Assembly (NCBI GenBank): GCA_041879365.1
Contig: CP089923.1
Span: 1,399,095-1,463,094 of the forward strand
Direction of reading: 5' to 3'
Origin: Nodosilinea sp. LVE1205-7
Lineage (GTDB): Bacteria > Cyanobacteriota > Cyanobacteriia > Phormidesmidales > Phormidesmidaceae
DNA: 64,000 bases
Each line of letters opens with the position of its first letter. Position 1 is the first letter of the stretch. The notes under the pieces are model-generated. The model had not been told where the DNA came from. It ran no database searches and saw only the letters and a program-made list of their open reading frames with translations. The position numbers and the translations under genes were made by a program. Below, piece after piece: positions 19,411 through 62,016 of this stretch.

Positions 19411-22391
19411 CTAAACCATGGCTGACTGCTGTTGGTAAAGGGTGTAGTAGCGACCTTGTAAGGCCATCAAGTGATCATGGCTGCCTAATTCCACCACCGA
19501 TCCCTGATCCATCACTAGAATCTGGTCGGCGTGCTTAATGGTGTTGAGACGGTGGGTAATAAAAAACACTGTGCGGTTCTCCGCCCAGTGCATCAGGTTG
19601 ATTGACACCTGGTGCTCGGTATCATAGTCGAGGGCACTGGTGGCTTCGTCCAGGATCAATAATCGGGGGTTTTGCAGAATGGTACGGGCAATGGCAATCC
19701 GTTGTCGCTGCCCTCCTGAGAGGGTAGAGCCTCGCTCTCCGACGCGGGTATTGTAACCCAGGGGCAACTCCATAATGAAATCGTGGCAACAGGCAATTTT
19801 AGCGGCCTCAATAATCGCACCCGCCTCAGCCCCAGAATTAGTCAGGGCAATATTCTCCTGAATCGTGCCCTCAAACAGCAAGCTATCTTGAGGGACGATA
19901 CCGATCTGCTGCCGCAGAGAATGGAGCTCCACCTTACTAATGTCGTAATGATCGATTAAAATTCGACCCGATTCTACTTCGTAAAGGCGAGGTAGTAGCT
20001 TCATCAGGGTACTTTTTCCCGACCCACTCTGACCGACAACACCCACAAAACTACCCGGGGAAAATCGAGGGAAACATTAATTAACTGCATGGGGCCACTG
20101 GGAGCAAAGCGAAAAGCCACATTCTCAAAACTCACCCGGCCCTCAATTTCTGGCATGGGTATTTGCTTAACATCCTCCAGGTTGGTTTCCTGAGGATAGT
20201 CAATAATGTCGGACAGGCGTTCCAGGGATAGGGCCGTCTCCTGAAAGTTTTGCCATAGCTGGGCTAGCCGTAAAATGGGGGCAGTGACGTAGCCTGAAAT
20301 AATGCGAAAGGCAATCAACTGGCCCAGGGTAAGGTCTCCCTTCAACACCAGGTAGGCCCCTACCCAAAGCACCAGCAGGGCTGACAGCTTATTTAGAAAA
20401 TTACTGGTGGAATTAGCTGTAGTTGAGGTGAGGACATTTTGAAAGCCCGCACTAACGTACTCGGCGTAGCGCTCTTGCCACTTCCAGCGAGTTCGTAGTT
20501 CAATATTCTGGGCTTTGACGGTTTGAATTCCAGAGAGAGACTCCACCAGCAGAGCCTGGGTAGCAGCGTTGCGTTCGGCCTTGACCCGTAACTGTCGCTG
20601 CACAATCGGGGCCACCAGAATGGTTAGCACCACAAACAGGGGGACGGTTGCCAGGGCCACCAGGGTAAGCAGCCAGCTATAGATGAACATGACGACGATG
20701 TACACCAGGGAAAATACCGCATCTAACACCACAGTCAGGGCGGTGCCCGTCAGGAATTGGCGAATATTTTCCAGCTCGTTGATCCGGCTGGACAGCTCTC
20801 CCACCGGACGGCGATCAAAATAACGTAGGGGTAAGCGAAATAGGTGATCGATAATTTCCGTACCCAGGGCCATATCGATGCGGTTAGTCGTATCGACAAA
20901 CAGGTAGGTGCGTAAGCTGGTTAGCAGGGCTTCAAAGATCGCCACAATCACCAGCAAAATCCCCAACACCTGTAGAGTATCGATACTGTTTTGAACAATC
21001 ACCTTATCAATAATGATTTGAATAATCAGGGGATTGGCCAGACCGAATAACTGCACAAAAAAGGAGGCGACAAAAACCTCTAACAATACCCAGCGATACT
21101 TTTGAAGGAAGGGCCAGAACCATTCCAACCCAAATCGTTGCCGGGGAGTTTCTCGGGTGGGCTCCAGCAACAACACCTCTCCCCAATCGCCCCAGGTCTC
21201 TGCAAAGCTAGCAGGGGTTCGACGAATCAAACCAACCTCTGGATCGCCCAGAATATAGCCCTTTTCCGAGGTTTCGTAGAGAACCGCGAAGCCTTCCTGC
21301 CAGCTAATTAAACAAGGGGTGGGGAGGCGATCAAAGGCCTGGGCTGGTACCTGCACCAACTGGGTTTTCAGACCGATCATTTCCGCCAGGGAGCCACAAA
21401 CTGGCAGGGACAGGCGGCCCATGCGTTCCTGTTGATTAGTCAGAATGCGGCGAATTACATCTTTGCGAAAAGGTATTTTAAACTGCTGGCTAACCATGTC
21501 GAAGCAGGCCAGGGGGTTATCCACGGGGCCTCGACCACGGGCATAGGGGTAGCTGTGGCTGCGATCGGAGGCCGGCGCGGAGGCCGTCAGAAGGGCTTCG
21601 CTAGCATAGGGAACGTCGCTAACGTCAAGGGAAACCCTAGGCTCTGGGGCAACCACCGGGGCAACCACCGAGGCAACCACCGAGGCAAAGGTTGCCGCCA
21701 GAACTGCCGGGGTCAGTCCCAGTAAACGTGCTCCCTGGGGACTGAGCACTTCCATAGTGAAAGACTGATCCAAGGGTAGGGTTGAGCCCACCGGCCAATT
21801 GAGCACCGTCCCACCGCTTAAAATCCAGGTGAGCTGGGAATCCAGGTGACTCAGGTTGCAGCTTCCCTCAGGCAGGGTAACCAGGGTGGATTCCTGGCAT
21901 AACCGCTGGGCCCTGGCTTTCAGATCTCCCAGGTCGAGGGCCTGATCTTTAGCGTGTTGACTGAGCAAATCGAAGGCTTCAATCAGGTAGATTTGATCGC
22001 GAATAGCCCGACCAAAGGCGGGATAATCCTGGAGATATTGGAGAAAGGTATAGGCAGGTAGGTTGAGGGCCACCACTTCACTAGAGGCGATCGCCGTTTC
22101 ACAGGGCAGCCCTCGCACCAGGCTAACGGCTCCAACCAGATTTCCCTCCCCCAGACGCTCAAGGGTAAGGGGCTGTTGACTACGAGGATCTTGACCTAAT
22201 AAGCGTACCTGACCTTCTAGAATGACCAGAACCTGCTGACTTAATACCTCTCGCAGAGCTAGAGGTTGACCAACTCGATAACGGAAGAGCTGGGCAGTTT
22301 GCAGCAACTGACTTAGGGCTGACGGCGACAGACTGTCAAAGGGATGCAGCCTGGCCAAGGTGGAGGACAGAGAAGGAGGAGTTTGAACCAT
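19411..22391 (-). CDS. Peptidase-C39 / cyclic-nucleotide-binding-domain ABC exporter (bacteriocin/HetC-like T1SS ABC transporter); frameshift at a G4 run (20057-20060)
   Basis: N-terminal cNMP-binding domains, a C39-like region (NPLACFDMVSQQFKIPF), six TM helices, then an NBD with Walker A GQSGSGKST, signature LSGGQRQR and Walker B LILDEAT. Start placed at the internal Met (MVQTPP…) so the gene does not overlap tRNA-Val. Confidence 0.85.
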
Positions 22392-22403
22392 CGGAGAAAA
22401 AAA

Positions 22404-22476
<73 letters not shown>

Positions 22477-22906: not shown

Positions 22907-24610
22907 ATGTCATATTCATCTAAACCATTGGCTAAGCCTTGGGTAACCACCTTCGACGAGTTTGTGCAATTGGCAGATTATTCTCTGATGGATACTTTGA
23001 ATGCCGATCCTGATGCCACGGTCGATGGTGATGATCATCGGGCCCGCCAGGTTTTTTCTGGTCATTTCGTACCTGTGACACCCACGCCGCTTGCAGAACC
23101 AGAATATGTAGCCCATAGCAGCACTTTTTTTAAGGAACTTGGGTTGAGCGATGATCTGGTGCTGAATGAAAAATTTCGCCAGGTATTTTCTGGTGATCTG
23201 TCTGTGGTCCATGGGCCGATGCGTCAGGTTGGCTGGGTGACGGGTTATGCGCTGTCGATTTATGGCACCGAATATACTCAACAATGTCCCTTCGGCACGG
23301 GTAATGGTTATGGCGATGGTCGGGCCATATCGGTGTTTGAAGGAATCATCAATGGCCAGCGCTGGGAAATGCAATTGAAAGGGGGTGGCCCAACGCCCTA
23401 TTGCCGGGGTGCCGATGGGCGCGCCGTGCTCCGTTCAAGTGTGCGCGAGTTTCTGGCGCAAGACTATATGCAGGCGTTAGGTGTTCCCACATCGCGCTCT
23501 TTGACACTGTATGTTTCTAAATCTGAGACCGTTGCCCGGCCTTGGTATTCTCAAGACTCCCACTCCATCGACCCTGATATTTTGGTGGACAATCCTGTGG
23601 CCATTTCAACTCGCGTTGCACCATCCTTTCTGCGGGTTGGTCAGCTAGAGTTATTTGCCCGTCGCGCTCGCCGTGATGCTCATCCAAAAGCATTAGAAGA
23701 GTTGAGCATGATAGTATCCCATTTAATTGAGCGAGAATACAAAAGCGATATTGATCAAACCCTTGGTTTTGCAGATCAATTAGTTGAGTTGGCTAAGTTA
23801 TTTCGCCAGCGTCTTACGACCCTGGTGGCCAATTGGCTACGGGTTGGTTACTGCCAGGGTAATTTTAATAGTGACAACTGCGCTGCTGGTGGCTTTACTC
23901 TCGACTATGGACCATTTGGGTTTTGTGAAATTTTATACCCTTGGTTTCAACCTTGGACTGGCGGCGGCAAACACTTTTCCTTCTTCAATCAGCCCATCGC
24001 AGCAGAGGCAAATTATCATATGTTTTGGCAATCTGTAAGACCATTACTTGCAGAAGATGCTGAAGCTTTAGAACCGTTCGACCAAGTACGCCGTGGCTTT
24101 GCAGAAGCAATGCAGGAACAAGTTCAAAAAATGTGGGCGGCCAAACTTGGCTTACCTGAATTTAACCCAACGCTATTTAAGGGATTAATGGAGTTAATGA
24201 CCCAATCGGAGATAGATTACACTATCTTCTTTCGAGAGTTATCCCATATACCAGACGATATCTCACCATTGAAAAAAAGCTTCTATGGTAAAACGTCGCC
24301 CCAACTCGATGAACAATGGCAATCTTGGTTAAAAAGCTGGCGTGACCTCGCCCTTAACCACGGCAATTTGGCTGAGATATCAACAAAGATGAAACAGACT
24401 AACCCCAAATACGCATGGCGAGAGTGGTTGGTCGTCCCTGCCTATCAACAAGCCATGCAGGGTAACTACAGGTTAGTTAAAGAGTTGCAAGACGTACTGA
24501 GCTATCCCTATGATGAGCAATCCCAGGAAGTAGAAGATAAATACTATCGCCTAAAACCCAAGGCGTTTTCTAACCTTGGTGGCGTCTCGTACTATAGCTG
24601 TTCATCGTGA
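22907..24610 (+). CDS. selO: Protein adenylyltransferase SelO (YdiU/UPF0061 family)
   Basis: 567 aa; the conserved block [41 protein letters not shown] and the overall length match SelO. Confidence 0.85.
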
Positions 24611-24779: not shown

Positions 24780-25600
24780 AGCCTGGTCACTTACTATCGA
24801 TGGTTGGTGATTTATCAGGGGTAGGATGGGCAAAGGGCCTGAGCCCGTGCCCATCACCTGAGAGTGATCAGGCCAGGTTAAACCCTGACCTGGAGCTGGG
24901 CAGATCCTGGCTGCGATCGCGGGTGGCGGGGGTGCGATCGCAGTTGGTCGCTGGCTAGGGGGTATTGTTGGGCCTTGATGCTTAAGTTGGGGGTGGAAGG
25001 GTGGTAAGGTCTAATCTATTACGGGCAAGGGCTCCTGATCACTGATTACTGACCCCTGATTACTGTTTTTCTTACCGGGGGAATGGCGATTTCCCCCGGA
25101 CCCCCTCGCCCAGGGCGTGCCGCCGCCCTGGACCCGACGGAAGGGGTTAAAGGGTGGGCCGCCGATCGCGCTTCGCTTTGCTCTCAGCCTGTAGACCCCG
25201 GTTGCTTGAGGAGAAGCTTCCTATGGGTGGGAATCTGGGTGGTGCGGGCTCCTGATCACTGACTACTGATTCCTGACCACTCACTTCGCTTTGCTCTCAG
25301 CCTGTAGACCTGGGGAGGGGGCTACAGGCGCAGGGCGGATAGAGAAGTCTATCTAAGGGTGAGGGAGTTGGTGGCCAGGGCTTCTGACTACTGACCACTG
25401 ATTCCTGACCACTCACTTCATCGCGCTTCGTATTGCTCTCAGCTTGTAGACCTCTGCTGCTTAAGCAGGAATTTTGTCAGGGTGAGATAGGGGGTAGAGG
25501 GGACTCCTGATGACTGACCGCTGAAACGCTTGCGAATCGCTTGCTGACTGAGGGAGAGGGCTGCAAAACCGGATGCACCCAGACGTTCTCGCCAAAGCGA
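24780..25600. repeat. Left block of a composite repeat region: element A (~105 bp), double-hairpin element B, then ~130-150 bp satellite-like units containing STRR-like heptamer tracts
   Basis: 24812-24916 is repeated verbatim at 28421-28525. 25076-25200 (CCGGGGGAATGGCGATTTCCCCCGG…CCCAGGGCG…CGCCCTGG) is repeated at 28705-28830. The units CTCAGCCTGTAGACC–TGGGGAGGGGGCTACAGG–…–CTGACTACTGACCACTGATTCCTGACCACTCACTTC recur at 27660-27840 and 28830-29060. Confidence 0.6.
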
Positions 25601-27419: not shown

Positions 27420-27483
27420 GGATGGCTGCTTAGTGGTGCGGAAAAGTCCTGAAAGTACTGATATTCGGGAGAGTGATTAGAAT

Positions 27484-27628
27484 TTTGTGTAAACCCTGGT
27501 TTTGGCAACTAAAAATCAATGGTTTCAGCCTGATCTGGCAATGTTTTCTGAACACTCCCGCTGGTTCCCATTTTGCTATCCTGTTTCCAGGACGTTTCAA
27601 TTTCTAACTAAATCCCCGTTTACACAAA
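27484..27628. mobile_element. MITE family B copy 1 (TIR TTTTGTGTAAAC)
   Basis: 145 bp bounded by TTTTGTGTAAAC / GTTTACACAAAA. A near-identical copy at 36386-36676 carries a nested insertion. Confidence 0.5.
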
Positions 27629-27644
27629 AATCCGAACAGTCCCC

Positions 27645-27840
27645 TTCTGATTACTGACCACTGATTCCTGACCACTCACTTCATCGCGCCTCTCAGCTTG
27701 TAGACCTGGGGAGGGGGCTACAGGCACAGGGCGCAGGACGCAAGGCGGATAGAGAAGTCTATCTAAGGGTGAGGGAGTTGGTGGCCAGGGCTTCTGACTA
27801 CTGACCACTGATAACTGACCACTCACTTCGCTGATTACGG
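27645..27840. repeat. One satellite-like unit with heptamer (STRR-like) tracts, same family as in the flanking blocks
   Basis: …CTGATTACTGACCACTGATTCCTGACCACTCACTTC…CTCAGCTTGTAGACCTGGGGAGGGGGCTACAGG…GGATAGAGAAGTCTATCTAAGGGTGAGGGAGTTGGTGGCCAGGG…. Confidence 0.55.
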
Positions 27841-27845
27841 TTTTT

Positions 27846-27860
27846 AGGGCAATTTGCCCT
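27846..27860. promoter_or_regulatory. 15 bp perfect palindrome AGGGCAATTTGCCCT at the head of the tandem-repeat locus
   Basis: AGGGCAA-T-TTGCCCT. A related AGGGCACCTTTGCCCT occurs at 63538-63553. Confidence 0.3.
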
Positions 27861-27878
27861 AAAAACCTTAAGGTTTCA

Positions 27879-28070
27879 TCTATGCATATGTCGATCACCA
27901 TTAAGCACATTCTAAACACACGCGTGCAACTGTTGTTGTAGTCTATGTGCATAAAGAGCACCATTGAGCGCATCCTAAACACAGGGTGTGATCGTTAAAA
28001 ATGCGCCAAAAACCACTGTTTTGATCTATGTGTATGGCGATCACCATTGAGTGCATGCTAAACACAGGCC
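27879..28070. repeat. Three tandem copies of a ~64-82 bp repeat (TCTATG…GATCACCATT(A/G)AG(C/T)(A/G)CAT(T/C/G)CTAAACACA…)
   Basis: Copies start at 27879, 27943 and 28025. The 3' end of each copy (…CACAGG(G/C)(T/C)TGTGATCG…) seeds the following 21 bp array. Confidence 0.6.
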
Positions 28071-28343
28071 TGTGATCGATGTTTGCACGCCTGTGATCGT
28101 TATACACACCCGTGTGATCGATGTGCGCAGCGGTGTGATCGTTATACACAGGCGTGTGATCGATATGCGCACGGGTGTGATCGTTAAGCACAGCCGTGTG
28201 ATCGATATGCGCAGCGGTGTGATCGGTATGTACAGCCGTGTGATCGATGGTTGCAGGGGTGTGATCGTTAAACACACCCCTGTGATCGCTGTTGGCGGAG
28301 GTGAAATCGGTGTGTACAGCCCTGCGATCGCGGTTGGTCACCG
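28071..28343. repeat. Array of 13 perfectly phased 21 bp direct repeats, consensus TGTGATCG(A/T)T(A/G)T(G/A)C(G/A)CA(G/C)(C/G)(C/G)G
   Basis: Unit starts at 28071 + 21n (n = 0-12). Units alternate between two sub-types (…CGATGTGCGCAGCGG / …CGTTATACACAGGCG), giving a 42 bp super-period. Four adjacent units (28092-28175) read TGTGATCGTTATACACA or TGTGATCGATGTGCGCA, resembling CRP-family TGTGA-N6-TCACA sites. Confidence 0.85.
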
Positions 28344-28379
28344 TCTGAGGAGTGTTGTTCTGCCTCAATGCTGAGCTTG

Positions 28380-29110
28380 GGGGTAAAAGCTTAGATACAG
28401 AGGTCTCCTAATCACAGCGGGGTAGGATGGGCAAAGGGCCTGAGCCCGTGCCCATCACCTGAGAGTGATCAGGCCAGGTTAAACCCTGACCTGGAGCTGG
28501 GCAGATCCTGGCTGCGATCGCTATGGGCCGGGGGGACATGGATGAAGCCATGGGGGAGACTACTCTTCCCGGCCCCCCATAGGGTGTTGTCTGGCTTTGA
28601 GCTTGAAGGGTGGATGCTTGAGGAGCAGCTTCCTGTGGGTGAAAATCTGCGTGTTAAGAGCTCCTGATCGCTGATTACTGACTACTGGATTACTATTTCT
28701 TTTGCCGGGGGAATGGCGATTTCCCCCGGACCCCCTCGCCCAGGGCGTTCCGCCGCCCTGGACCCGACGGAAGGGGTTAAAGGGTGGGTGGCCGATTGCG
28801 CTTCGCATTGGTCTCAGCTTGTAGGCCTGGGGGAGGGGGCTACAGGCGCAGGGCGCAGGGCGGATAGAGAAGTCTATCTAAGGGTGAGGGAGTTGGTGGC
28901 CAGGGCTTCTGACTACTGACGACTGATAACTGACTGCTGATTCCTGACCACTCACTTCATCGCCCTTCGCTTTGATCTCAGCCTGTAGACCTGGGGGAGG
29001 GGGCTACAGGCGCAGGGCGCAAGGCGGATAGAGAAGTCTATCTAACGGTGAGGGGGTCGGTGGCCAGGGATTCACCCTATAGAACCCGCGACTAGGATCG
29101 AGCTAAGGGC
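28380..29110. repeat. Right block of the composite repeat region (element A, spacer, element B, two satellite units); direct repeat of 24780-25450
   Basis: 28421-28525 is identical to 24812-24916. 28705-28830 matches 25076-25200. 28830-29060 holds two units of the CTCAGC(C/T)TGTAGACC…GGCTACAGG…CACTCACTTC family. Confidence 0.6.
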
Positions 29111-29480
29111 AATGGTTGGGGGGCTAGTTATATTGGGCCGGACACCAGTTGATCAGATGCCCAGTTCTTACTCAAGAATGACGCATCCATGAGCAAACCC
29201 GTACCATTGCTAAAGAAATCTTGAGTTACAGAGCAGCCAGGGCGCGGGGGTATTTATACTGAAACTTTCCACCTAAGATCCCCTATTCGGCATTTAGGCT
29301 GAATTTTTTCCACCTAAGATCCCTCCAGGGGTGTTTAGGCGGACAGATTTCCACCTAAGATTCCCTATAGGGGTATTAGACGGAAAATTTCCCTCTATTT
29401 AGTAGTTGGACTGAATTGGCAACAGTGATTTTGAGAAAACTGCTGGATTTAAACCAAAGCCAAGGGAGAACGTTTAGCTT

Positions 29481-30891
29481 ATGTCTTTTGGAAAGTTTGT
29501 CTTTATCCTCCTATTTTTCACGATTTTCGATCTTCCTACCAAAGCATTTGCCGCAGAACAGCCCGTCGCGAATCTTTCACGCATTTAACCAAAAATACAG
29601 TGAGGTTGACGACTTTGTTTGTACGCTTGCTGAGCAAGGGTATTCCCACATACAAATCTCACCCGCACAACAATCGAATCCTAACAACGTCAATTCTAAT
29701 CCAAATGCCCCTGTGAATGTATGGGCAGGGCGTTATCAGCCTGTTAGCTATAGGGTGATTGACGGATTAGGATCTGAGCAAGACTTAAAGACTCTAACTG
29801 ATAAAGCCCATAGCTGTAAGATTAAGGTGATTGCCGACGTGGTTTTTAATCACATGGCGAGCATGAATCAATATAGCTCTCTAACTAACTTCCCTGACTT
29901 TCCCGATCCAAATGCTAGAGATGTCAGGAAAAATGGGTCAACCTATTTTCACAAGCAATGTGACATCAACTACAATGATGGTAACAGATCCACGGAAGTA
30001 AATTGTTGGTTGGGAGGTGCTCTTCCCGATCTCAATCAAAACAATTCAACTGTTAAGCAGGTTCAGAAAGCGCATTTGCAGAAGCTGCTGGATCTGGGGA
30101 TTGATGGCTTTCGGTTTGATGCCGCTAAACATATGCCGCCAGAAGCTATTCAAGAGTACATTAGCTACATTAATCAAGCGAGTAATAATCAGGCATGGAA
30201 TTATCTTGAGGTGATTGAAGATAATGATACGAGTGCGACCAACTATAATTTCATTGCTGCTGTAGAAGACTTTGTTCTCTATAGCTCAATGAAAAATGCA
30301 TTTACCTTTGGTGGGGATCTGCGATCATTACGAGTCCCCGTTGCCATTAACGATTCACGTAGCGTAGTATTTGGGCGAAACCATGACCAGATTAAACGTT
30401 TGAATGATGACGCTCTAAATGCCTACGATGATGAAACAGATTCTTATCTGGCGACGGCTTATGTGTTGGCTAGGCAGCAGGGCACTCCATTAATATTTGG
30501 ACCAGACAATTTAGTTCCTTATATTCCTGCTGGAGTCAAGTTTCGTCGGATCATGCATGAGAGAGGGAAGGAAGGTCGTAACGTAAAAGATAATGTTTTG
30601 CAGGTACCTGATAGTAAAACCGTCTTAATGATGGAACGGGGTAGCGAAGGATTCTTTGTTGTTAATAAGGGATTGGATAAATTTAATGTTCAGGTTATGG
30701 ACTTGACGCTCACTAATTTAGAGGGGTGTTACAGAGAACTACGAAATAACTTTACCGTCGCAATTGAGAGGAGGGCTAACAATAAGAAGTTTGTCACTCG
30801 GTGGGGAACGTGGGATCGCGGTGGGATGGAAGTTCAAGGTCGAGATGCAATATACTTCATTCGTGAACCATTTAATCAATGTGCGAAATAA
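29481..30891 (+). CDS. Secreted alpha-amylase family (GH13) protein; signal peptide is in a different frame from the catalytic domain
   Basis: GH13 conserved regions DVVFNHM and GFRFDAAKHM are present. A signal peptide MSFGKFVFILLFFTIFDLPTKAFAAEQ (29481-) reads in the +1 frame relative to the main ORF (29416-30891), so an indel near 29560 is implied. Confidence 0.7.
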
Positions 30892-31300
30892 ATAGCTGTG
30901 TTATGGCGGCTCCTGGACTAATGAGGTGTGGCCAGCCCCTTACTAGTAAGGATTTCGCGCTGGAGGATGTACCTCACTCGGACAAGAACTGCTATATAAC
31001 CAGCCGCCCAACACTGCGCTGCAACGGACGAAATCGAGTCTTGATGAGAATGCCAAAATTACTTGCTGCCGTTGAGCTTCACCGTTAGACCGCTGAATTG
31101 TCGGTTGGAGCAGTACTTGAAGCTTATCTGTTTGTTAAACTGTTTCAGTGTTCGATTGCGGAGTGTGCGAAAGTTCTTGTTTGAAACATAAAGTCTAACT
31201 ACTAAACGTTATCAATTAAGCACGTCTTAAATTCTTAAGTCTCCCAAGCACTTTAGCTAGCAATCAAAGTTAATGTTTAACGAACCTAGAAAAACTTTAG

Positions 31301-32695
31301 ATGCTTATGTATAAAGCCCTTCCAACAATCATATTTTTAAGTTCTGTTACTGCTGTGTTGTCTCTTATTGTATGGTTGTTGGGCACATGGCTTAAATTTA
31401 ATTATTTAACATCCTTACTAATCTTCACTGGCTTATTTTTGCTCATCCTATACTCTGTAGGCTCAATCAGAATAATTAATCAAGGAAACGAAGGTTTAAT
31501 AGAGCGGTTAGGGCGTTATCATCGCAAACTTGTACCGGGTTTGAACTTTATTATTCCATTTATGGACACGATTGTTTTAGAAGAAAGCACTCGTGAGAGA
31601 GTTTTTGATATAACTCCACATCTGACTATCACAAAAGATGGGGTTCCTCTAGAAATAGGTGTTGTTGTTTTTTGGCGAATCCTACAACTTGAAAGGACTT
31701 ATTATAGCATTGAGGATATTGAGGAGGGCTTAAGAAATATTATAGTTAATTCTCTTCGATTTAAAGTTGGCAGATTTGAATTGGAAAAAGTATTTTCTTT
31801 GAGAGATGACATAAGTTATAGTCTTTTAGCAATCTTAGATGATGCCACTGCTACTTGGGGAATTAAAATTACACGTATCGAAGTAGGAGATATTCTTCTC
31901 GCCAAAGCAGTGTTAGGTGAAAATTCCGACACCATTGAATTCAGCTTCCACAATGGGATCGATTGGGAAGCTTTTAGATATTCATTCAACTTGACGATTG
32001 AAAATGAAGGAGTGGAACTCAGCATTCAAGGTATAGAAGATAGAGGTGATGGAGTCCTTGTAGTTAAAGTTAGGGTTCCTTCTAACGTAAATAAAGCACA
32101 AATTTACAAAGACTTTACTACAAATTATGAAACAGCTTTTAAGGAATTGGAAGCTAGATACAGTGCTGAATTAAAAGCTAAGGAAGGTGAGATTGCAATC
32201 TACCGTGAACAAAGTTCAAGTATGTGGACGGTAATAAATTCATTGGCAAACCGACCTATAAATGTACAAGCAATTGCAAAAGCTATGAACGAAAGTACGG
32301 ATCAGAGTCAAAATATCAACATTGGTGGCAATGTCACTGGATCAACTATCAATTTGGGGGAAATCAGTGGTAGTGTTTCAAATACAGTTGCTCAATTGCC
32401 AAGTTCTCCAGATCCCAATCAACCTGGTGTAAAGGAACTACTGAGTCAGCTCCAAGAGATTATTGAGCAAGAGAAAGAACTATCATCTGAAGACAAAGCA
32501 GATCTGTTGGAGCAAGTTAAAGCTTTGGCAGAAGTGCAACAAGCTCCTGAGCAAAACCAGAAAGAAGGATTGGCACGGAAAGCCAAAAAGATGTTTGAAG
32601 CGACTTTGAAGAGTTTACCTGAAACTGCCAAAATTGTAGATGCTAGTGCTAAATTACTGCCTATGATCTTAAAGTTGCTAGGATTGCCAGTATAA
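31301..32695 (+). CDS. SPFH/band-7 (stomatin/prohibitin-like) membrane protein with a ~150 aa C-terminal extension
   Basis: Two N-terminal TM helices, then an SPFH core (…IINQGNEGLIERLGRYHRKLVPGLNFIIPFMDTIVLEESTRERVFDITPH…). The extension (NINIGGNVTGSTINLGEISGSVSN…KADLLEQVKALAEVQQ…KKMFEATLKSLPETAKIVDASAKLLPMILKLLGL) resembles N-terminal adaptor domains of cyanobacterial STAND/CHAT-type proteins. Confidence 0.75.
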   Translation: MLMYKALPTIIFLSSVTAVLSLIVWLLGTWLKFNYLTSLLIFTGLFLLILYSVGSIRIINQGNEGLIERLGRYHRKLVPGLNFIIPFMDTIVLEESTRERVFDITPHLTITKDGVPLEIGVVVFWRILQLERTYYSIEDIEEGLRNIIVNSLRFKVGRFELEKVFSLRDDISYSLLAILDDATATWGIKITRIEVGDILLAKAVLGENSDTIEFSFHNGIDWEAFRYSFNLTIENEGVELSIQGIEDRGDGVLVVKVRVPSNVNKAQIYKDFTTNYETAFKELEARYSAELKAKEGEIAIYREQSSSMWTVINSLANRPINVQAIAKAMNESTDQSQNINIGGNVTGSTINLGEISGSVSNTVAQLPSSPDPNQPGVKELLSQLQEIIEQEKELSSEDKADLLEQVKALAEVQQAPEQNQKEGLARKAKKMFEATLKSLPETAKIVDASAKLLPMILKLLGLPV

Positions 32696-32882
32696 GAAGT
32701 TTTTGAAGTTGTCATAGTCAATTAGGTTAAGTGCGCGGTCTAACAATTCAAATGCAGCGGACAGACTGAAATGCTTTCTGCTTCGTTTCGAGTCCTATGC
32801 TGCCGCTGATTTGAGCCGTTAGCAATCCACGGCGCTTCACACCTTCAGGGTGAAAGTAACTAGCTCTCGCCAATAAGTATAT

Positions 32883-34433
32883 ATGCTCATCATGTATAAC
32901 TCAGACAATTCAAGAGATAGAGCACTAGTAAGTACAATCTTCTCTGGAAAAGTGAAGTCTATGGTTAATCAATTAAGAGAGATGAACTATCAACACAGGG
33001 AGCTATACAGCCGTATTCAGGCATTTTCTTTAGATCAACCAAATACTCAGTTATTGTTTCACAAGCGATTGGCTAGGGATAATGGTTGGTCGATAGGCTA
33101 TGCTCAGAGAGTGATTGAGGAATATAAAAAGTTTGTATTTCTAGCTGTTGCAGCAGGTCATCCTGTCACGCCATCCGATCAAGTTGATCAAGTTTGGCAT
33201 TTGCATTTGACTTATACACGATCGTACTGGCAAGAGTTCTGCCCCAAAATTTTGCAGACCACATTACATCATGATCCAACTCGTGGAGGTTCATCCGAGC
33301 AATTAAAATTTGACAACTGGTATAGCAAAACACTAGAGAGTTACCAACAGTTTTTTGGACAGATTCCTCCAATTGACATTTGGCCCAAACCTAAAGACCG
33401 ATTTGGGCGCGATTTACATTTTATCCGGATCAACACTCAAGAAAATTGGGTTTTGACAAAACCCAATTTCAAAATCTCCTTCAAACCACAACTGCAACAA
33501 GGAGTAACCTTTTCCTTTTTATTTGTGCTTGCGCTTGTTGTAACTAGCTGTCAAGTAATCTCCCAAATTCCTAACCCAATCAATTTTACAGGTTCGGAAT
33601 TTTTAACGTTCTATATTTCGATAGCAGTGATAGGAATTGCTTTGGCTACCTGGCTACGTTTTTCTCTTCGCTTGCCTAACGGGATCACAAATAAACACCC
33701 TGATTTAAATGCTTACGAGATAGCTTTCTTAGCTGGCGGCAATAATCGCATGATTATGACTGCGATCACCAGTTTAGTAAAACAAGGCTATGTAGAGGTA
33801 GCAAAAGAAAAACTACCATCTTTTATTGGTAGCATAACGCAAAGAAAACTGGCTTTGAGAACAAGTATTGATAATATTACTGACCCTGTAGAAAAGGCAG
33901 TTGCACAAAATATTTTCACAACTGATGGAGGAATTGAACAGGTCTTGCAGAAATCCACAGTAGTGGAGGATAGTATTCGCTCCCGCCTACAACAATTGAG
34001 CTTGTTTCTAAGTAATGATCAGGCAGTCAAAGCACAACTTTATCCATCGTTGATTGTACTTATTCTCTTAGGGCTAGGCTTATGTAAAGTATTTGTCGGA
34101 ATTTCTCGCGATAAGCCAGTTGGTTTTCTTTTGATGTGTATGTGGGTGCTTCTAGTTTTGGGATCAAGGTTTTTTGTAAAACCATATCGTAGCCGTTATG
34201 GAGATCGCATTTTTAATGATTTAACAAATCGCTCACAAGACTTAAAAACAGCCAATAGCAGCGATTCTAAGCTTCCACTTGCGGTTGCGTTGTTTGGAGC
34301 AACAGTTCTGACAGCCGATAGTGCTTTAGCAGATTTGCATCAAATGTTGGTTTCTACAGCTGGTGGTGGCGGCGATGGCGGCGATGGTGGCGGTTGCGGT
34401 GGTGGCGGTTGTGGTGGATGCGGTGGTGGTTGA
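32883..34433 (+). CDS. Fusion of a DUF1399 (glycine-rich-domain protein, GRDP-like) N-terminal domain with a TIGR04222-like membrane domain ending in a Gly/Cys tail
   Basis: The N-terminus (LFHKRLARDNGWSIGYAQRVIEEYKKFVFLAVAAGHPVTPSDQVDQVWHLHLTYTRSYW) matches the DUF1399 core. Several TM helices follow, and the gene ends AGGGGDGGDGGGCGGGGCGGCGGG*. Confidence 0.55.
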   Translation: MLIMYNSDNSRDRALVSTIFSGKVKSMVNQLREMNYQHRELYSRIQAFSLDQPNTQLLFHKRLARDNGWSIGYAQRVIEEYKKFVFLAVAAGHPVTPSDQVDQVWHLHLTYTRSYWQEFCPKILQTTLHHDPTRGGSSEQLKFDNWYSKTLESYQQFFGQIPPIDIWPKPKDRFGRDLHFIRINTQENWVLTKPNFKISFKPQLQQGVTFSFLFVLALVVTSCQVISQIPNPINFTGSEFLTFYISIAVIGIALATWLRFSLRLPNGITNKHPDLNAYEIAFLAGGNNRMIMTAITSLVKQGYVEVAKEKLPSFIGSITQRKLALRTSIDNITDPVEKAVAQNIFTTDGGIEQVLQKSTVVEDSIRSRLQQLSLFLSNDQAVKAQLYPSLIVLILLGLGLCKVFVGISRDKPVGFLLMCMWVLLVLGSRFFVKPYRSRYGDRIFNDLTNRSQDLKTANSSDSKLPLAVALFGATVLTADSALADLHQMLVSTAGGGGDGGDGGGCGGGGCGGCGGG

Positions 34434-34906
34434 TTGAAAACCGTCTAACATTCGCTTGGAGCGGACTGACGAAAATCCTTAGTTTATTGTAGAGATTGTT
34501 AGCAGCCTCTCAAGTGGAGCGTTACCCACGAAGGTCCGCCTAAAGTCATGGGGAGACAGGCCCGCGATCGCCCACCGAACGGGGGTATTGACTGCCTTAA
34601 CTGGGATATTGGCCGAGGAGCAGCGATCGCCCCACCAATACAGCTCCTGGGGCTAGGGCTATTGCCAAGACTTAGCCCCACGGCACCGGAGATCGCAGCA
34701 GAACCCCCCGCCACCCATGAGTCACCCCACACAGCGGATACCTTCGGCCCCCTCAGACCTGGTCACCTTAAACTCACCTGAAGGCCGCACAGCCCTGCTG
34801 GATCACTGGTTGACGCTGTGGCTAGAGCGCCTGAACAACACGCCTTCTCTACCCAGCCCTTTATCGATGCTGCCCAGCAACGCCTCTGGGAACTAGCAGA
34901 GTAAAG

Positions 34907-36189
34907 TGTACCCCGTTGTCTAGACAGTTAGGGTAGGAATTTAAAGTAGAGTCGCCATTTAGTTCATTTTCTTTCTCTACGTCTCTTTTTTACATCACTA
35001 TCCTCCTGCTTACTGAAGTAGACACTGGCTGGCGGCCTATAGTTCAGTGACTGGTGTAGCCGCTCCTGGTTATAAAACCGAAAATAACGCTCCAGATTCT
35101 CAATGGCACTTGAAACACTGTCGTAGTCTTTGAGGTAGACCTCTTCGTACTTGACGGTACGCCACAGCCGTTCCACGAAAATGTTATCAAAAGCCCGGCC
35201 CTTGCCGTCTTGAGAAATTTGGATCGCTCGCCCCTCTAACGCCCCTGTAAAGGCCAGGCTGGTAAATTGACTGCCCTGATCTGAGTTAAAGATCGTAGGC
35301 TGACTGACCTGCAGCGCCTCCTCCAGGGCCACCAAACAAAAATGCACATCCATGGTATTCGATAGCTGCCAGGACAGTACATAACGGCTGTACCAGTCCA
35401 TCACCGCTACCAAATACACAAACCCATTCGCCAGCCGAATATAGGTAATATCCGTGCTCCACACCAGATCGGGGCGGTCAATACACAGCCCCCTCAGCAA
35501 GTAGGGATACCGGCGAGCGTTGTCCCCAGCTATCGTTGTCCGGGGCTTCGGATAGATCGCCTGAATCCCCATCTGACGCATGATCCGCGCCACCCGCTTA
35601 TGATTGACCGCCTCGCCCTGTTGTCTCAACCAGGCGGTCATTCGGCGCACCCCGTAAAACGGCGTCGCCGTGTATTGTTCGTCTATTCGTTCCATCAGAT
35701 GTAACTCGTAAGGGTCAATCGCCACTGGTTCGTAGTACCAGCTAGACCGCGCCAGCTCTAGTAACTCACATTGTCGACGGATACTCAGCTGAGGATGCTC
35801 TGGCTCCACCAGCCGTCGTTTATTCGCCAGCGGTAAGGCCAGATTTTTTTTCAACCAGTCCACTTCTACCTTCAGTTGACCGATTTGTTGATAAAGTTGG
35901 GCGGTTAGCTCTTCCTGGTCTTTACGGCCCTGGGCTCGCCGTGACGAAAAAATGCCAGGAAGCTCATCGAGCACCTGCTTCTTCCATTGGTTGATCTGGC
36001 TGGCATGGACGCCATACTCACTCGATAGTTCGTTCACAGTTTTTAGCCCCTTGATGGCCTCTAGAGCCACCTTAGCCTTGAAGTCCGCACCATGTCGCTT
36101 GCGCTGCATTTCCCTGTTGATCTCCGTATAGCTACTGAATTGCTGGGCAGCGACTCTATCTTATTTCCCTGTACAGTTTCCGGGGTACA
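34907..36189 (-). mobile_element. IS3-family insertion sequence (1283 bp) with terminal inverted repeats TGTACCCCG…
   Basis: The left end TGTACCCCGTTG… matches the reverse complement of the right end …CCGGGGTACA, and both ends carry AGAGTCGC. Encodes an OrfAB-type transposase. Confidence 0.8.
34964..36109 (-). CDS. IS3-family transposase (HTH OrfA part fused in-frame to the DDE integrase-core OrfB part)
   Basis: 381 aa: HTH region (…ALEAIKGLKTVNELSSEYGVHASQINQWKK…), leucine-zipper-like segment, then an rve/DDE core (…WSTDITYIRL…NSDQGSQFTS…). An A8 run (35855-35862) sits exactly where IS3 elements carry their -1 frameshift window. Confidence 0.85.
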   Translation of the reverse strand: MQRKRHGADFKAKVALEAIKGLKTVNELSSEYGVHASQINQWKKQVLDELPGIFSSRRAQGRKDQEELTAQLYQQIGQLKVEVDWLKKNLALPLANKRRLVEPEHPQLSIRRQCELLELARSSWYYEPVAIDPYELHLMERIDEQYTATPFYGVRRMTAWLRQQGEAVNHKRVARIMRQMGIQAIYPKPRTTIAGDNARRYPYLLRGLCIDRPDLVWSTDITYIRLANGFVYLVAVMDWYSRYVLSWQLSNTMDVHFCLVALEEALQVSQPTIFNSDQGSQFTSLAFTGALEGRAIQISQDGKGRAFDNIFVERLWRTVKYEEVYLKDYDSVSSAIENLERYFRFYNQERLHQSLNYRPPASVYFSKQEDSDVKKRRRERK

Positions 36190-49900: not shown

Positions 49901-50191
49901 TTGTTCCAGCTCTACGGTGCGGCCCTGGTCGTCATCCAGGCGGCGATAGGCTAGGGCCAGCCCCCACACCGCCAGAATGCTGTAGACATTGTCTCGCACC
50001 CAGGCATCGGTGTAGTTGCCGTGGCTATTCACTGCCGTGCTAGCGGGCATTAAACCACTGACGGGATGCTGGCGCACCAGAATGGTGGTTTTGATCTGGC
50101 GATAGTAGCGGTCAAGCTGGGCTTGCAGTGAGGAGAGGGACATAGGCAGATAAGCAGGGGAATTTCTACAGTATGGGACTGAGATGATCAA
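46910..50191 (-). CDS. Large GH15 (glucoamylase)-like domain protein, phosphorylase-kinase alpha/beta-like
   Basis: 1093 aa. The N-terminal region (…NYTDAWVRDNVYSILAVWGLALAY…LQIDATSVFLLMLAQM…GIWERGNKINHG…) matches the (alpha/alpha)6 GH15-like fold seen in the phosphorylase kinase A/B family. Confidence 0.65.
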   Translation of the reverse strand: MIISVPYCRNSPAYLPMSLSSLQAQLDRYYRQIKTTILVRQHPVSGLMPASTAVNSHGNYTDAWVRDNVYSILAVWGLALAYRRLDDDQGRTVELEQSVVKLMRGLLLAMLRQASKVERFKERQDPLAALHAKYDTATGTPVVGDGEWGHLQIDATSVFLLMLAQMTASGLQIIYTLDEVNFVQNLVYYIGRAYRTPDYGIWERGNKINHGKPELNASSVGMAKAALEAMRGMNLFGMRGGQASMIHVLPDEIARARITLESLLPRESGSKEVDGALLSVIGFPAFAIESADVVRQTRQKIIDKLQGRYGCKRFLRDGHQTVIEDTSRLHYEPEELKQFEHIECEWPLFFTYLWLDSLFSGDRDAIADYRERLADLAIDHGGQALLPELYYVPADKLELERQQPGSQNRQPNDNLPLVWAQSLYLLGQLLDDGLLKPEDLRPLGRHHLVGEQRYPVLQLALLAEDKALREELSTYGLTTQTPAEIAPIQVFSATELSAIYAEIGKNPTLSLSGRPIRRLRSLTTSRIFRIQDHQVVFLPSFLDQERFYLTLDYHFLVAQIRSELAYIYDHWREPGRPTVVLLLSHAMFQLGHKPIHESPLLALMQELMTGRCDHVPVKLAPLHQLIITTSLERVDNLNSYQLGSSAIIYPSPWTAYLGFEPNRDGPLSVVEEFDLERETNLERLLAQLQASNNVYVQVELLSTLKHLKGLGFDTGLGGPQRRVTVTDLLDEIYAKASQLEQWDILRRTAGLLEKTDISLSDAVTELLVRQKQISVGKAYSEASLITEPMAHGEIIEKIRTFCGDDVRDHVLTQEVLIDLSLLMKAEPSLFKGLLTLRVGYLLLLLTSELARERQLPQDEAYGELLSLSPFELKTRLRQVLAGFSGLNQSIFQRESLRVKPLSDINWEVLPAEVEKSPPEAITSPQDWWRKRVIDGEITRIPPEFYTQLWEVLKHCKGIVIGNKLDRKNRLDSASILSEMTPGEQNFERRITHLLSKIEAPEYRHVNLEALREMGEIFKVNPDLYFEDYLYLDVLIGHAVRIGWLDHQPQRASTYESDKAAAWQGFYQLSPSQCATYIARALEFLTELGESEAA

Positions 50192-61892: not shown

Positions 61893-62016
61893 AGGCTCAA
61901 ATGCCTGGTAAAGAGACTTTGGTAAGGCCAGAAAGGAGTGATCGGGATTGTATATCAACAAGTACCCCACTCTCCCATCACCATGGCAAGATAGGGGGTA
62001 GAGTAGGGGGCTTCTG

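What the first reader, a model, noticed from the sequence alone, without database searches (positions are those of the whole stretch)
28071..28343. Thirteen strictly phased 21 bp direct repeats (TGTGATCG core) with CRP-like palindromes every 42 bp: an iteron-like or regulator-binding array in a gene-free repeat island
Thirteen contiguous units start exactly every 21 bp (28071 + 21n), which is two helical turns. The units alternate between two sub-types, giving a 42 bp super-period. Four adjacent units (28092-28175) approximate the CRP/FNR-family palindrome TGTGA-N6-(T)CACA (for example TGTGATCGTTATACACA), so identical half-sites are displayed on one face of the helix along about 270 bp. Nothing in a normal intergenic region needs this. 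It is the architecture of plasmid or phage replication iterons, partition (parS-like) centromeres, or a high-occupancy binding array for a CRP-family regulator or nucleoid protein. A ~64-82 bp repeat present three times immediately upstream (27879-28070) ends in the same TGTGATCG motif and looks like the seed from which the array expanded. No coding interpretation is convincing (see rejected items).
Basis: seen in the sequence. Interest (0 to 1): 0.85.

Follow-up and report, generated by a model that had tools for sequence, protein, structure and literature searches.

The report
BOX-like dispersed repeat with 21-bp array
The 13 phased 21-bp repeats are real, but they are the variable-length middle of a roughly 530-bp non-coding repeat element scattered through this cyanobacterium (Nodosilinea) and its relatives, not a replication origin, partition site or CRP-binding array.

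Summary
There are eleven exact TGTGATCG cores at 28071+21n, two decayed units run to 28343, and there are no indels.

The array is not a one-off. It is the central module of a composite element at about 27856-28385:
- a conserved ~215-nt leader with three sub-repeats spaced 63 and 84 nt;
- a variable array;
- a conserved tail.

I found about 40 copies. At least 4 are in the source genome (Nodosilinea sp. LVE1205-7). At least seven related Nodosilinea/Leptolyngbya-type MAGs carry 1-7 each, and there are 18 metagenome contigs. All copies are intergenic, lie in any orientation, have no recurrent neighbour gene, and sit in mosaic repeat islands.

Arrays differ by whole units between near-identical strains (11/12, 5/8 and 12/10 units with flanks 99-100% identical).

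Protein coding is not supported, although one frame is open. No Rfam family, promoter, CRP or NtcA site, rep/par gene, or plasmid or phage match was found.

The closest analogue is the pneumococcal BOX element (boxA-(boxB)n-boxC).

What stays unexplained is an invariant 8-bp GATC-containing core and a strict 21-bp register (246 of 247 spacings). These survive fast unit turnover and hint at sequence-specific recognition.

Verdict: a new member of a known kind, of moderate to low interest.

The parts
27835..27871 (.). Near-perfect palindrome (TTACGGTTTTTAGGGCAA / TTGCCCTAAAAACCTTAA) at the left edge of the element. It is specific to the window sub-lineage (also in L079, L087, L089, L096).
   Evidence: I2: 18-nt arms, 94% complementary, 1 nt apart; left-end comparison.
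27856..28070 (+). Conserved leader module, about 215 nt. It is 85-97% identical among ~40 copies in different genomes (relative to the L057 copy) and shows no indels. It holds three 46-nt sub-repeats plus one solitary direct unit, all in 21-bp register with the array.
   Evidence: 29 unique copies; the only gap is the window's 1-nt G deletion at 27984, which is absent from the JGI version of the same contig.
27879..27924 (+). Leader sub-repeat 1: an inverted 21-nt unit (TCTATGCATATGTCGATCACC), a 13-nt linker, then TAAACACA+SSSS.
   Evidence: Sequence.
27942..27986 (+). Leader sub-repeat 2, 63 nt after sub-repeat 1. The window version lacks one G of the GGGG run at 27984.
27987..28007 (+). Solitary direct unit inside the leader (TGTGATCGTTAAAAATGCGCC), 84 bp (4x21) upstream of the array start.
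   Evidence: exact core at 27987; conserved in most copies.
28025..28070 (+). Leader sub-repeat 3 (TCTATGTGTATGGCGATCACC ATTGAGTGCATGC TAAACACAGGCC), which abuts the array.
28071..28343 (+). Array of 13 x 21-bp units. The family consensus is TGTGATCG-N-TA-NNNN-CA-SSSS. Two unit types alternate here, giving 42-bp and 84-bp super-periods. The last units decay to TGCGATCGC (the HIP1 motif).
28344..28385 (+). Conserved tail module (tctgaggagtgttgttctgcctcaatgctgagcttgggggta). It is homologous to the '(g/t)ctggggggtactgttgggccttgattctcaagttgggggt' tail of many other copies. Similarity between copies ends here.
   Evidence: The second copy in the same genome (L079) aligns to window 27828-28412 at 85% identity.

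Best explanation
The array is the variable-number central module of a composite, non-coding, interspersed repeat element of about 530 bp (leader, then n 21-bp units, then tail). The element belongs to the Nodosilinea/Leptolyngbya-type cyanobacteria. Its organisation matches the pneumococcal BOX element (boxA-(boxB)n-boxC).

Shown:
- The element is multi-copy within and between genomes.
- It is always intergenic and occurs in every orientation relative to neighbouring genes.
- It sits in mosaic repeat islands together with heptamer STRR-type repeats and MITE-like modules.
- Its array gains and loses whole 21-bp units (or 42-bp pairs) and swaps unit variants much faster than its flanks change.
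- In the window it lies where synteny with close relatives breaks.

Inferred:
- Copies spread by recombination or trans-mobilisation by an unidentified enzyme.
- Arrays change by replication slippage or unequal recombination and gene conversion between units.
- The invariant 8-bp core (TGTGATCG, which contains a GATC methylation site) and the strict 21-bp (two helical turns) register are kept because something recognises the core sequence specifically. That could be a DNA-binding protein, or the machinery that copies the units.
- The element has no demonstrated role for the flanking genes.
For: Family and architecture:
- A three-core pattern finds arrays with the same unit consensus at 1-7 loci in each of at least 7 cyanobacterial MAGs.
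- A leader 27-mer finds 18 more metagenome contigs.
- The source genome holds at least 4 copies: the window (P0029), L079 (P0009), P0013 and P0030.
- Leader, array and tail come in the same order everywhere, with 3-15 units and two alternative tails.

Variable unit number (VNTR behaviour):
- L094/L095: flanks 100% identical, 11 vs 12 units.
- L086/L090: flanks 100% identical, 5 vs 8 units.
- L097/L109: 99.1% identical over 8.7 kb, 12 vs 10 units.
- L041/L082: flanks 99.5% identical, yet many substitutions inside the array.

Context:
- Elements lie between convergent, tandem and divergent ORFs (6, 5 and 4 cases). No neighbour protein family recurs apart from the element's own ORFs.
- Many short-read contigs end inside the array.
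- Relatives whose adenosine deaminase gene is 92% identical at the DNA level lack the element, and their homology to the window stops 9 bp after that gene.

Non-coding:
- The core is invariant even at would-be synonymous sites. Unit variability has no codon phase that fits an open frame.
- In the leader, pN/pS is 0.74 in the open frame, against 0.60-1.20 in the five closed frames.
- Only 13 of 576 possible substitutions could create a stop, so the open frame carries no information.
- There is no conserved start codon and no Pfam family.
- Gene callers start the 'protein' at different internal Met codons.

Register: 246 of 247 core-to-core distances are multiples of 21. The 29 unique leaders show no indel.

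BOX elements share the modular build, open frames on both strands, clustering with other repeats and alternative end modules (PMC3049150).
Against: - No transposase, terminal inverted repeats with target-site duplications, or clean empty site was found, so mobility is inferred from distribution only.
- The ends show only a weak inverted similarity (GGCCCAAAATACC / GGTACTGTTGGGCC) and a constant direct TTGGGGGT.
- Purely neutral turnover does not explain why 8 core positions, T10-A11 and C16-A17 stay fixed across 140 distinct unit variants while the other positions vary freely. It also does not explain the absence of indels. Some function or a biased copying process is therefore likely and remains unidentified.
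- No transcript, methylation or protein-binding data exist for these organisms.
Confidence: 0.7

Rival explanations
1. Chromosomal protein-loading array. Each 21-bp unit is a binding site for a lineage-specific DNA-binding protein, and the two-turn spacing puts all cores on one face of the helix. The arrays would act as iteron-like, centromere-like or nucleoid-organising platforms, or as GATC-methylation-sensitive platforms. This can coexist with the dispersed-repeat description.
For: - The invariant core plus fixed T10-A11 and C16-A17 among 226 units (140 distinct) looks like a footprint about one and a half helical turns long.
- The 21-bp register is strict.
- The leader keeps the same register with no indels.
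- The core survives rapid unit turnover.
- Every unit carries GATC. [quoted passage not shown]
Against: - No candidate binding-protein gene is linked to the arrays.
- There is no match to the CRP or NtcA consensus.
- Copy number and position are not conserved, and the element is absent from the same locus in close relatives.
- Array length is unconstrained, from 3 to 15 units.
Confidence: 0.15
2. Non-coding RNA gene family. The leader plus array would be transcribed into a structured or protein-sponging RNA with repeated motifs, or the element would act as a cis-RNA stabiliser or terminator on neighbouring transcripts, as proposed for BOX and BIME elements.
For: - The whole element folds better than shuffled sequence on both strands (z = -4.9 on +, -4.4 on -). 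This is because the leader's inverted cores can pair with the array's direct cores.
- BOX elements are transcribed in some contexts.
Against: - No Rfam hit.
- No sigma-70-like promoter, and no convincing terminator belonging to the element.
- The leader consensus fold is weak (-23 kcal/mol over 194 nt; z = -2.7 and -1.75).
- A permutation test found no within-element co-variation between the leader's inverted unit and the array units (6.19 vs 6.20).
- The element has no orientation bias relative to neighbouring genes.
Confidence: 0.1
3. A family of small His/Asp-rich heptad-repeat proteins encoded on the minus strand (…NDHTRAH IDHTPVY… followed by a conserved C-terminal part …MHSMVIDMCIDHNNGF…MVIDMCID), or a VIxxxxx-repeat protein on the plus strand, as called by the JGI annotation.
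For: - The minus-strand frame is open through the array and leader in about 20 of 24 copies inspected. Only 3 stops occur among 29 unique leaders.
- The unit length is 7 codons and there are no frame-breaking indels.
- 34 database 'hypothetical proteins' match.
Against: - pN/pS in the open frame (0.74) is no lower than in out-of-frame controls.
- Variability is not concentrated at third codon positions in either candidate frame.
- The His and Asp codons are invariant at the nucleotide level.
- The open frame is not informative: the expected number of stop-creating variants is 1.2-2.0 and 1 was observed.
- There is no conserved start codon or ribosome-binding site, and the stop position varies (CID* in some copies, read-through into unrelated flank in others).
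- Called ORFs range from 60 to 159 aa with different starts.
- No Pfam domain.
Confidence: 0.03
4. Iterons or a partition centromere of an integrated plasmid or prophage, or a chromosomal origin element.
For: - The 21-bp direct repeats at two-turn spacing and the 42-bp super-period resemble iteron arrays and sopC-type centromeres (general knowledge).
- In close relatives dnaA lies about 5 kb from the adenosine deaminase gene.
Against: - No Rep, ParA/ParB or DnaA gene in the 64-kb window.
- No plasmid or phage match. The viral-contig hits are unrelated 3-unit duplications.
- There are several dispersed copies per genome.
- There is no GC-skew switch at the array.
Confidence: 0.01
5. Assembly artefact: a collapsed or expanded repeat.
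For: - The window version of the contig carries indel errors: 3 indels and 1 substitution in 21.7 kb relative to the JGI version.
- Short-read assemblies often break inside these arrays.
Against: - The same 13 units appear in both versions.
- The array is spanned within a 3.79-Mb contig.
- About 40 independent assemblies contain homologous arrays with the same architecture.
Confidence: 0.01

Closest known systems
BOX elements of Streptococcus pneumoniae and S. suis (boxA-(boxB)n-boxC composite interspersed repeats; Croucher et al. 2011, PMC3049150)
   Same: - Multi-copy and intergenic.
- Modular: conserved end modules flank a tandem array of a short sub-unit whose number varies between copies and strains.
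- Open reading frames arise on both strands and are sometimes annotated as genes.
- Found clustered with other small repeats.
- Alternative end modules exist (boxE/boxF in S. suis; two tail types here).
- Predicted to fold if transcribed.
   Different: - No sequence similarity, and a different phylum.
- The sub-unit is 21 bp rather than 45 bp.
- The sub-unit has an invariant 8-bp core with a hypervariable remainder.
- Arrays are longer (up to 15 or more units).
- The leader is itself built from inverted and direct unit-derived pieces in the same 21-bp register.
- There is no clear TIR match to an IS element.
Plasmid and phage iterons (e.g. R6K, P1, F, pSC101) and sopC/parC-type partition repeats
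   Same: Direct repeats of about 17-22 bp (or ~43 bp) at a spacing of about two helical turns, each unit with a conserved core. This is general knowledge and was not tested for function here.
   Different: - Not in a replicon origin.
- No rep or par gene.
- Many dispersed chromosomal copies.
- Copy number is hypervariable between strains.
- Absent from plasmid and phage collections.
Cyanobacterial short repeats: HIP1 (GCGATCGC), heptamer STRRs including TAACTGA-type repeats, small dispersed repeats (SDR, 21-27 nt, Nostoc), and Nezha MITEs
   Same: - Lineage-specific, highly iterated and intergenic.
- The island around the array is full of heptamer repeats (CTGAYYA).
- The decayed end units of the array are HIP1 sites.
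- The core shares GATCG with HIP1 (PMC5861425, PMC4679880; SDR and Nezha from my own knowledge and from mentions).
   Different: None of these is a leader-array-tail composite. HIP1 is a dispersed 8-mer, STRRs have 7-bp units, SDRs are single insertions rather than tandem arrays, and Nezha is a classical TIR-bounded MITE.
Hypervariable minisatellites with a conserved core (eukaryotic sense) and bacterial VNTR loci
   Same: Whole-unit gain and loss between near-identical strains, variant units interspersed along the array, and a core shared by all units.
   Different: Here the same array type, with the same flanking modules, is dispersed at many loci and across species.

Membership tests
Composite interspersed repeat (BOX/BIME-type mosaic element) | Many copies per genome at unrelated intergenic sites | tested here: met
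   At least 4 copies in the source genome. Between 1 and 7 loci in each of 7 related MAGs. All copies lie between ORFs, in all orientations.
Composite interspersed repeat (BOX/BIME-type mosaic element) | Modular build: conserved end modules around a tandem sub-unit present in variable number | tested here: met
   Leader (85-97% identical), then 3-15 units, then one of two tails. Unit number differs between strains whose flanks are 99-100% identical.
Composite interspersed repeat (BOX/BIME-type mosaic element) | Not protein-coding | tested here: met
MITE (miniature inverted-repeat transposable element) | Terminal inverted repeats matching an IS element, plus target-site duplications that differ between insertions | tested here: inconclusive
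   Only a 13-14-nt sub-terminal inverted similarity and a constant TTGGGGGT at both ends. No filled-versus-empty site pair was recovered: the relatives at the window locus are rearranged, not cleanly empty.
Iterons of a plasmid or phage origin | Phased direct repeats of ~17-22 bp | tested here: met
Iterons of a plasmid or phage origin | Located in a replicon origin next to the cognate rep gene (with DnaA boxes or an AT-rich unwinding element) | tested here: not met
   No Rep, Par or DnaA domain in any large ORF of the window. tblastn with the relatives' DnaA finds nothing in the window. No plasmid or phage match.
Iterons of a plasmid or phage origin | Bound by the initiator protein | not testable with these tools
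   Needs EMSA or DAP-seq.
CRP/FNR-family (or NtcA) binding site | TGTGA-N6-TCACA (or GTA-N8-TAC for NtcA) at canonical spacing | tested here: not met
   No match with up to 2 mismatches inside 28071-28343. The window as a whole has 14 matches against 20 expected. No GTA-N8-TAC in the array. The B unit is TGTG-N9-CACA.
CRISPR array | Repeats of 23-47 nt separated by unique spacers of similar length, with cas genes or a leader | tested here: not met
   The period is 21 bp with an 8-bp constant part. The 'spacers' come from a small recurring repertoire. No CRISPR family reaches threshold in Rfam.
Known RNA family (Rfam 15) | Covariance-model hit at the gathering score | tested here: not met
   Only 4 tRNAs in the window. 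The best hits in the island are sub-threshold chance matches.
Heptad-repeat protein gene | Purifying selection in frame, with a start codon and a conserved stop | tested here: not met

The most novel reading that the evidence does not exclude
The arrays are functional chromosomal platforms. A lineage-specific protein would recognise the invariant GATC-containing 8-bp core, perhaps in a methylation-dependent way. It would polymerise along cores displayed on one helix face every two turns, like an iteron or centromere array that has been dispersed around a polyploid cyanobacterial chromosome. The 13-bp inter-core segments would be free to vary. That would make this a new class of nucleoid-organising or segregation site, not just selfish DNA.
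Probability: 0.12. Interest if true: 0.6.

Novelty: new member of a known kind. Interest (0 to 1): 0.3.

Why it matters
For annotation: several pipelines call 'hypothetical proteins' of 60-159 aa on both strands of these elements. These should be masked as repeat-derived ORFs.

For assembly: the arrays break short-read contigs.

For strain typing: the arrays change by whole units between otherwise identical strains, so they are ready-made VNTR markers for Nodosilinea and Leptolyngbya populations.

For genome biology: the family adds a BOX-like composite repeat to the cyanobacterial repertoire, and it marks rearrangement points. An invariant GATC-bearing core kept in a strict two-turn register through fast turnover makes a small, testable puzzle about what reads that sequence.

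Tried and rejected
1. Protein coding, in three candidate frames. Rejected on unit-position entropy, leader pN/pS against out-of-frame controls, a stop-opportunity count, a start-codon survey and Pfam.

2. Within-element co-variation between the leader's inverted unit and the dominant array unit. By eye it looked promising (ATGCACAT with ATGTGCAT, ATGTGTAT with ATACACA). A permutation test showed no excess (6.19 vs 6.20; 3106 of 5000 permutations were at least as good).

3. Conserved RNA structure of the leader. Weak on both strands. No Rfam hit.

4. CRP and NtcA consensus scans. No hit in the array.

5. Promoter and terminator scan. No promoter-like site in the island. The terminator-like hits are at chance level.

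6. Plasmid, phage and viral-contig searches. Nothing related.

7. Linked gene. Clustering of ORFs of at least 100 aa from the 39 loci that carry the element gave only the element's own ORFs, plus a 132-aa ORF with no Pfam family present at five loci only.

8. Empty-site search. At the window locus, relatives with a 92% identical adenosine deaminase gene differ by rearrangement, not by a clean insertion. At the L097 locus, the flanking gene turned out to be a horizontally mobile type I restriction hsdR, so only same-species alleles were informative.

9. The apparent frameshift of the leader ORF in the window is a 1-nt difference between two versions of the same assembly, not biology.

10. Literature search by core sequence and by topic found no description of this family.

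11. The non-cyanobacterial hits to the three-core pattern have unrelated unit consensus sequences, mostly lie inside long ORFs, and are coincidental.

Full report

Yes. The 8-mer TGTGATCG occurs at 28071 and then every 21 bp up to 28281, giving 11 exact copies. Two decayed units follow (TGAAATCG, TGCGATCG) and end at 28343. One more exact copy at 27987 lies 84 bp (4x21) upstream. The only other occurrence in 64 kb is one reverse-strand copy at 12537.

A two-core pattern with up to 2 mismatches gives 12 hits, against 0.03 expected from shuffles. Tandem Repeats Finder (TRF) reports periods of 21, 42 and 84 with 0% indels.

The array lies in a 2-kb gap between an adenosine deaminase gene (ending at 27419) and an alpha-amylase-family gene (starting at 29416). 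Three upstream repeats start at 27879, 27942 and 28025.

**2. Where the window comes from**

SelO (the protein encoded at 22907-24610) is found on one record only: a 3.79-Mb contig of JGI sample 3300045937. Database proteins translated from the element are on a 3,787,723-bp contig of the NCBI MAG 'Nodosilinea sp. LVE1205-7'.

The window and the JGI copy (L001) differ at 4 positions in 21.7 kb (three 1-nt indels and one substitution):
- One G is missing from the window at 27984, inside the leader.
- An extra A at 26293 splits the deaminase gene in the window.

The window therefore carries small indel errors. The array has 13 units in both versions.

The window holds 41 HIP1 sites, four tRNAs and ordinary housekeeping genes: ppk, groEL, a formyltransferase, an aminoacyl-tRNA synthetase and ABC transporters. 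There are no Rep, ParA/ParB or DnaA domains.

**3. The array belongs to a dispersed family**

A pattern of three cores at 21-bp spacing hit 77 stretches in 185,579 species-representative genomes.

Most non-cyanobacterial hits have unrelated unit consensus sequences and lie in long ORFs. I treat them as coincidences among the many 21-bp repeats that exist.

A coherent group has the window's unit consensus:
- Leptolyngbya MAG JBEITR, 4 loci.
- Leptolyngbya MAG JBEIGU, 6 loci.
- Leptolyngbya MAG JBEIUS, 4 loci.
- Cyanobacteria bacterium REEB459, 4 loci.
- Cyanobacteriota bacterium 455109, 6 loci carrying 7 arrays.
- A Leptolyngbyaceae MAG, 1 locus.
- A Nodosilinea MAG, 1 locus.

Laid side by side, every copy has the same order of modules:
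- A conserved leader of about 215 nt.
- An array of 3-15 units.
- One of two conserved tails.

A 27-mer from the leader found 18 more metagenome contigs. The source genome holds at least four copies: the window, L079 at 1.6 Mb, and two more known from ORF calls.

**4. Anatomy**

*Units.* Over 226 units (140 distinct), the unit logo is TGTGATCG-N-TA-NNNN-CA-SSSS. The core is almost invariant. Positions 9, 12-15 and 18-21 vary freely, and the last four are G or C only.

*Leader.* It contains three 46-nt sub-repeats. Each is an inverted unit (TCTATGyryATnnCGATCACC), a 13-nt linker, and then TAAACACA+SSSS (the 3' part of a direct unit). They are spaced 63 and 84 nt, that is 3 and 4 units. A solitary direct unit lies between the second and third sub-repeats.

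*Indels.* Among 29 unique leaders there is no indel except the window's assembly error.

*Register.* 246 of 247 core-to-core distances in 37 arrays are multiples of 21. The whole ~500-bp element therefore keeps a single 21-bp register.

*The 42-bp alternation.* It is seen in the window and in a few relatives (L079, L089, L096, L041, L082). Other arrays are nearly homogeneous, so the alternation is not a family property.

**5. Dynamics**

Arrays change by whole units between near-identical strains:

| Pair | Flank identity | Units |
|---|---|---|
| L094 / L095 | 100% | 11 vs 12 |
| L086 / L090 | 100% | 5 vs 8 |
| L097 / L109 | 99.1% over 8.7 kb | 12 vs 10 |
| L041 / L082 | 99.5% | 9 vs 9, but several variable segments differ |

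Runs of identical units, for example seven in L036, show recent local duplication. Many short-read contigs end inside the arrays.

**6. Context**

Elements lie between convergent, tandem and divergent ORFs without bias. No neighbour gene family recurs.

The window's island is a mosaic of other dispersed modules that also accompany the element elsewhere: heptamer repeats, a 115-nt repeat, a MITE-like element and a 41-bp tandem repeat.

In relatives whose deaminase gene is 92% identical at the DNA level, a flavoprotein gene starts 3 bp after the deaminase gene, dnaA lies about 5 kb further on, and there is no element. Homology to the window ends at 27428. The island therefore marks a lineage-specific rearrangement or insertion point. 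It is not a conserved regulatory region of the flanking genes.

**7. Coding?**

A minus-strand frame is open through the array and leader in most copies (…NDHTRAH IDHTPVY… then …MHSMVIDMCIDHNNGF…MVIDMCID). The JGI pipeline called a plus-strand ORF over the array. The evidence is against coding:
- The core is fixed at would-be synonymous sites, and unit variability has no codon phase that matches an open frame.
- Leader pN/pS in the open frame is 0.74, within the 0.60-1.20 range of the five closed frames. Entropy is flat across codon positions.
- Only 13 of 576 possible substitutions could create a stop. The expected number of stop variants is 1.2-2.0 and 1 was observed, so the open frame is uninformative.
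- There is no conserved start codon. The frame ends at CID* in some copies and runs into unrelated flank in others.
- Database ORFs are 60-159 aa long with different starts.
- No Pfam family.

**8. RNA?**

- No Rfam family.
- No promoter-like site, and terminator-like hits at chance level.
- The whole element folds better than shuffled sequence on both strands (z = -4.9 and -4.4). This is expected, because the leader carries inverted cores.
- The leader's consensus fold is weak.
- A permutation test found no within-element co-variation between the leader's inverted unit and the array units.

An RNA role is not excluded, but it has no positive support.

**9. Iteron, centromere or CRP site?**

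- The B unit TGTGATCGTTATACACA is TGTG-N9-CACA, one base longer than the CRP core. No CRP match (up to 2 mismatches) and no NtcA match falls in the array.
- There are no rep or par genes.
- There is no plasmid or phage similarity. The viral-contig hits are unrelated.
- There is no skew switch at the array.
- Multi-copy dispersal is itself inconsistent with a replicon-specific origin or centromere.

**10. What it most likely is**

It is a composite interspersed repeat with a variable-number internal array. The nearest described analogue is the pneumococcal BOX element: boxA and boxC around a variable tandem array of boxB, ORFs open on both strands, clustering with other repeats, and alternative end modules in S. 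suis (PMC3049150).

Spread by recombination or trans-mobilisation is inferred, not shown. I found only a weak sub-terminal inverted similarity and a constant TTGGGGGT at both ends, and I recovered no clean empty site.

One feature goes beyond a neutral minisatellite. Eight core positions (plus TA and CA) stay fixed, and no indel appears, while the rest of each unit turns over quickly. That points to sequence-specific recognition, either by a DNA-binding protein or by the process that copies the units. The core contains GATC. GATC and CGATCG are known cyanobacterial methylation sites, and the decayed terminal units are HIP1 sites (PMC5861425). I cannot test this further here.

**11. Novelty and score**

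I found no description of this family, but its kind is well known. It matters mainly for annotation (spurious ORFs), assembly, and strain typing. It also poses a small puzzle about what reads the phased core. Interest: 0.3.

Noticed in passing
window 25035-25065, 25384-25413, 27647-27676, 27794-27823, 28671-28694, 28909-28952: Short arrays of heptamer repeats (CTGAYYA, including TAACTGA) flank the element and also lie upstream of the deaminase gene. The same heptamers sit next to family copies in other genomes. TAACTGA-type intergenic direct repeats are described for Beggiatoaceae and cyanobacteria (PMC4679880, seen).
   Followed up: partly
window 27680-27794, 28795-28909, 28959-29073: A ~115-nt dispersed repeat (ctcagcttgtagacctgggg...ggtggccagggcttctga) is present three times in the island (68-100% identity between copies). 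It is found at 80-98% identity beside family elements in L036, L041, L055, L064, L079, L089 and L096.
   Followed up: partly
window 27468-27644: A MITE-like module of about 180 bp with 27-nt imperfect inverted ends (GGAGAGTGATTAGAATTTTGTGTAAAC / GTTTACACAAAAATCCGAACAGTCCCC). Its left ~90 nt recur at 75-91% identity next to the element in at least 10 other loci.
   Followed up: partly
window 29247-29392: A 41-bp tandem repeat (3.6 copies), each unit containing TTTCCACCTAAGATCCC, lies directly upstream of the alpha-amylase-family gene. A related stretch occurs in L064. A weak CRISPR-DR12 hit (E = 1.5) falls inside it and is probably chance.
   Followed up: no
window 28527-28580: A G/C-clamped hairpin-like module (gggccggggggacatggatgaagccatgggggagactactcttcccggcccccc) lies about 190 bp downstream of the array. 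In L004 and L028 the same module abuts the array directly, as a third kind of tail.
   Followed up: no
window 29400-36100: A low-GC block (40-45% against 52% for the window) carries an alpha-amylase-family gene, an SPFH/Band 7 gene and a 516-aa ORF of unknown function with GGTGGY repeats at its 3' end. An IS3-family transposase follows at 34964-36109. The block is probably horizontally acquired.
   Followed up: no
window 26293, 27984, 14707; also 6125-8312, 39235-40889, 50166-51408, 60559-62138: The window differs from the JGI version of the same contig by three 1-nt indels and one substitution in 21.7 kb. One indel splits the adenosine deaminase gene. Several other genes in the window are also split in two (ppk, an ABC transporter, a class-V aminotransferase, a serine recombinase). 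This suggests residual indel errors in this assembly version.
   Followed up: partly
L098, L101 (relatives of the window's 25.6-27.4 kb): In metagenomic relatives with a 94% identical adenosine deaminase, the downstream genes are an HI0933-like flavoprotein, two unknown genes, psbP-like MSP, dnaA and peptide deformylase. None of these is in the window, so the deaminase gene sits between two synteny breaks in this genome.
   Followed up: yes
L005, L010, L014, L053, L077 (Planococcus beigongshangi); L016, L030, L040, L058 (a Thermoanaerobaculia MAG); L024, L044, L048, L072 (Nostoc): Three unrelated lineages each have their own multi-locus 21-bp tandem arrays that happen to start with TGTGATCG but have different unit bodies (for example TGTGATCGGCATAACGGCATT and TGTGATCGCGCTTAGCCGGCG). 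They are probably independent dispersed VNTR families.
   Followed up: no
L041, L043, L045, L067, L082, about 300-900 bp upstream of the leader: A 132-aa ORF (MPTINVARRLASRIINADIEAIHG...), 92-100% identical in five loci and more conserved than the leader, lies inside a ~1-kb block shared beyond the element. It has no Pfam family and is absent from the window.
   Followed up: partly
window 20004-22433 (-): An ABC exporter with a C39 peptidase domain and an N-terminal cyclic-nucleotide-binding domain. It is followed by an AprE-type (HlyD-like) beta-barrel membrane-fusion gene and looks like a bacteriocin- or peptide-export system.
   Followed up: no
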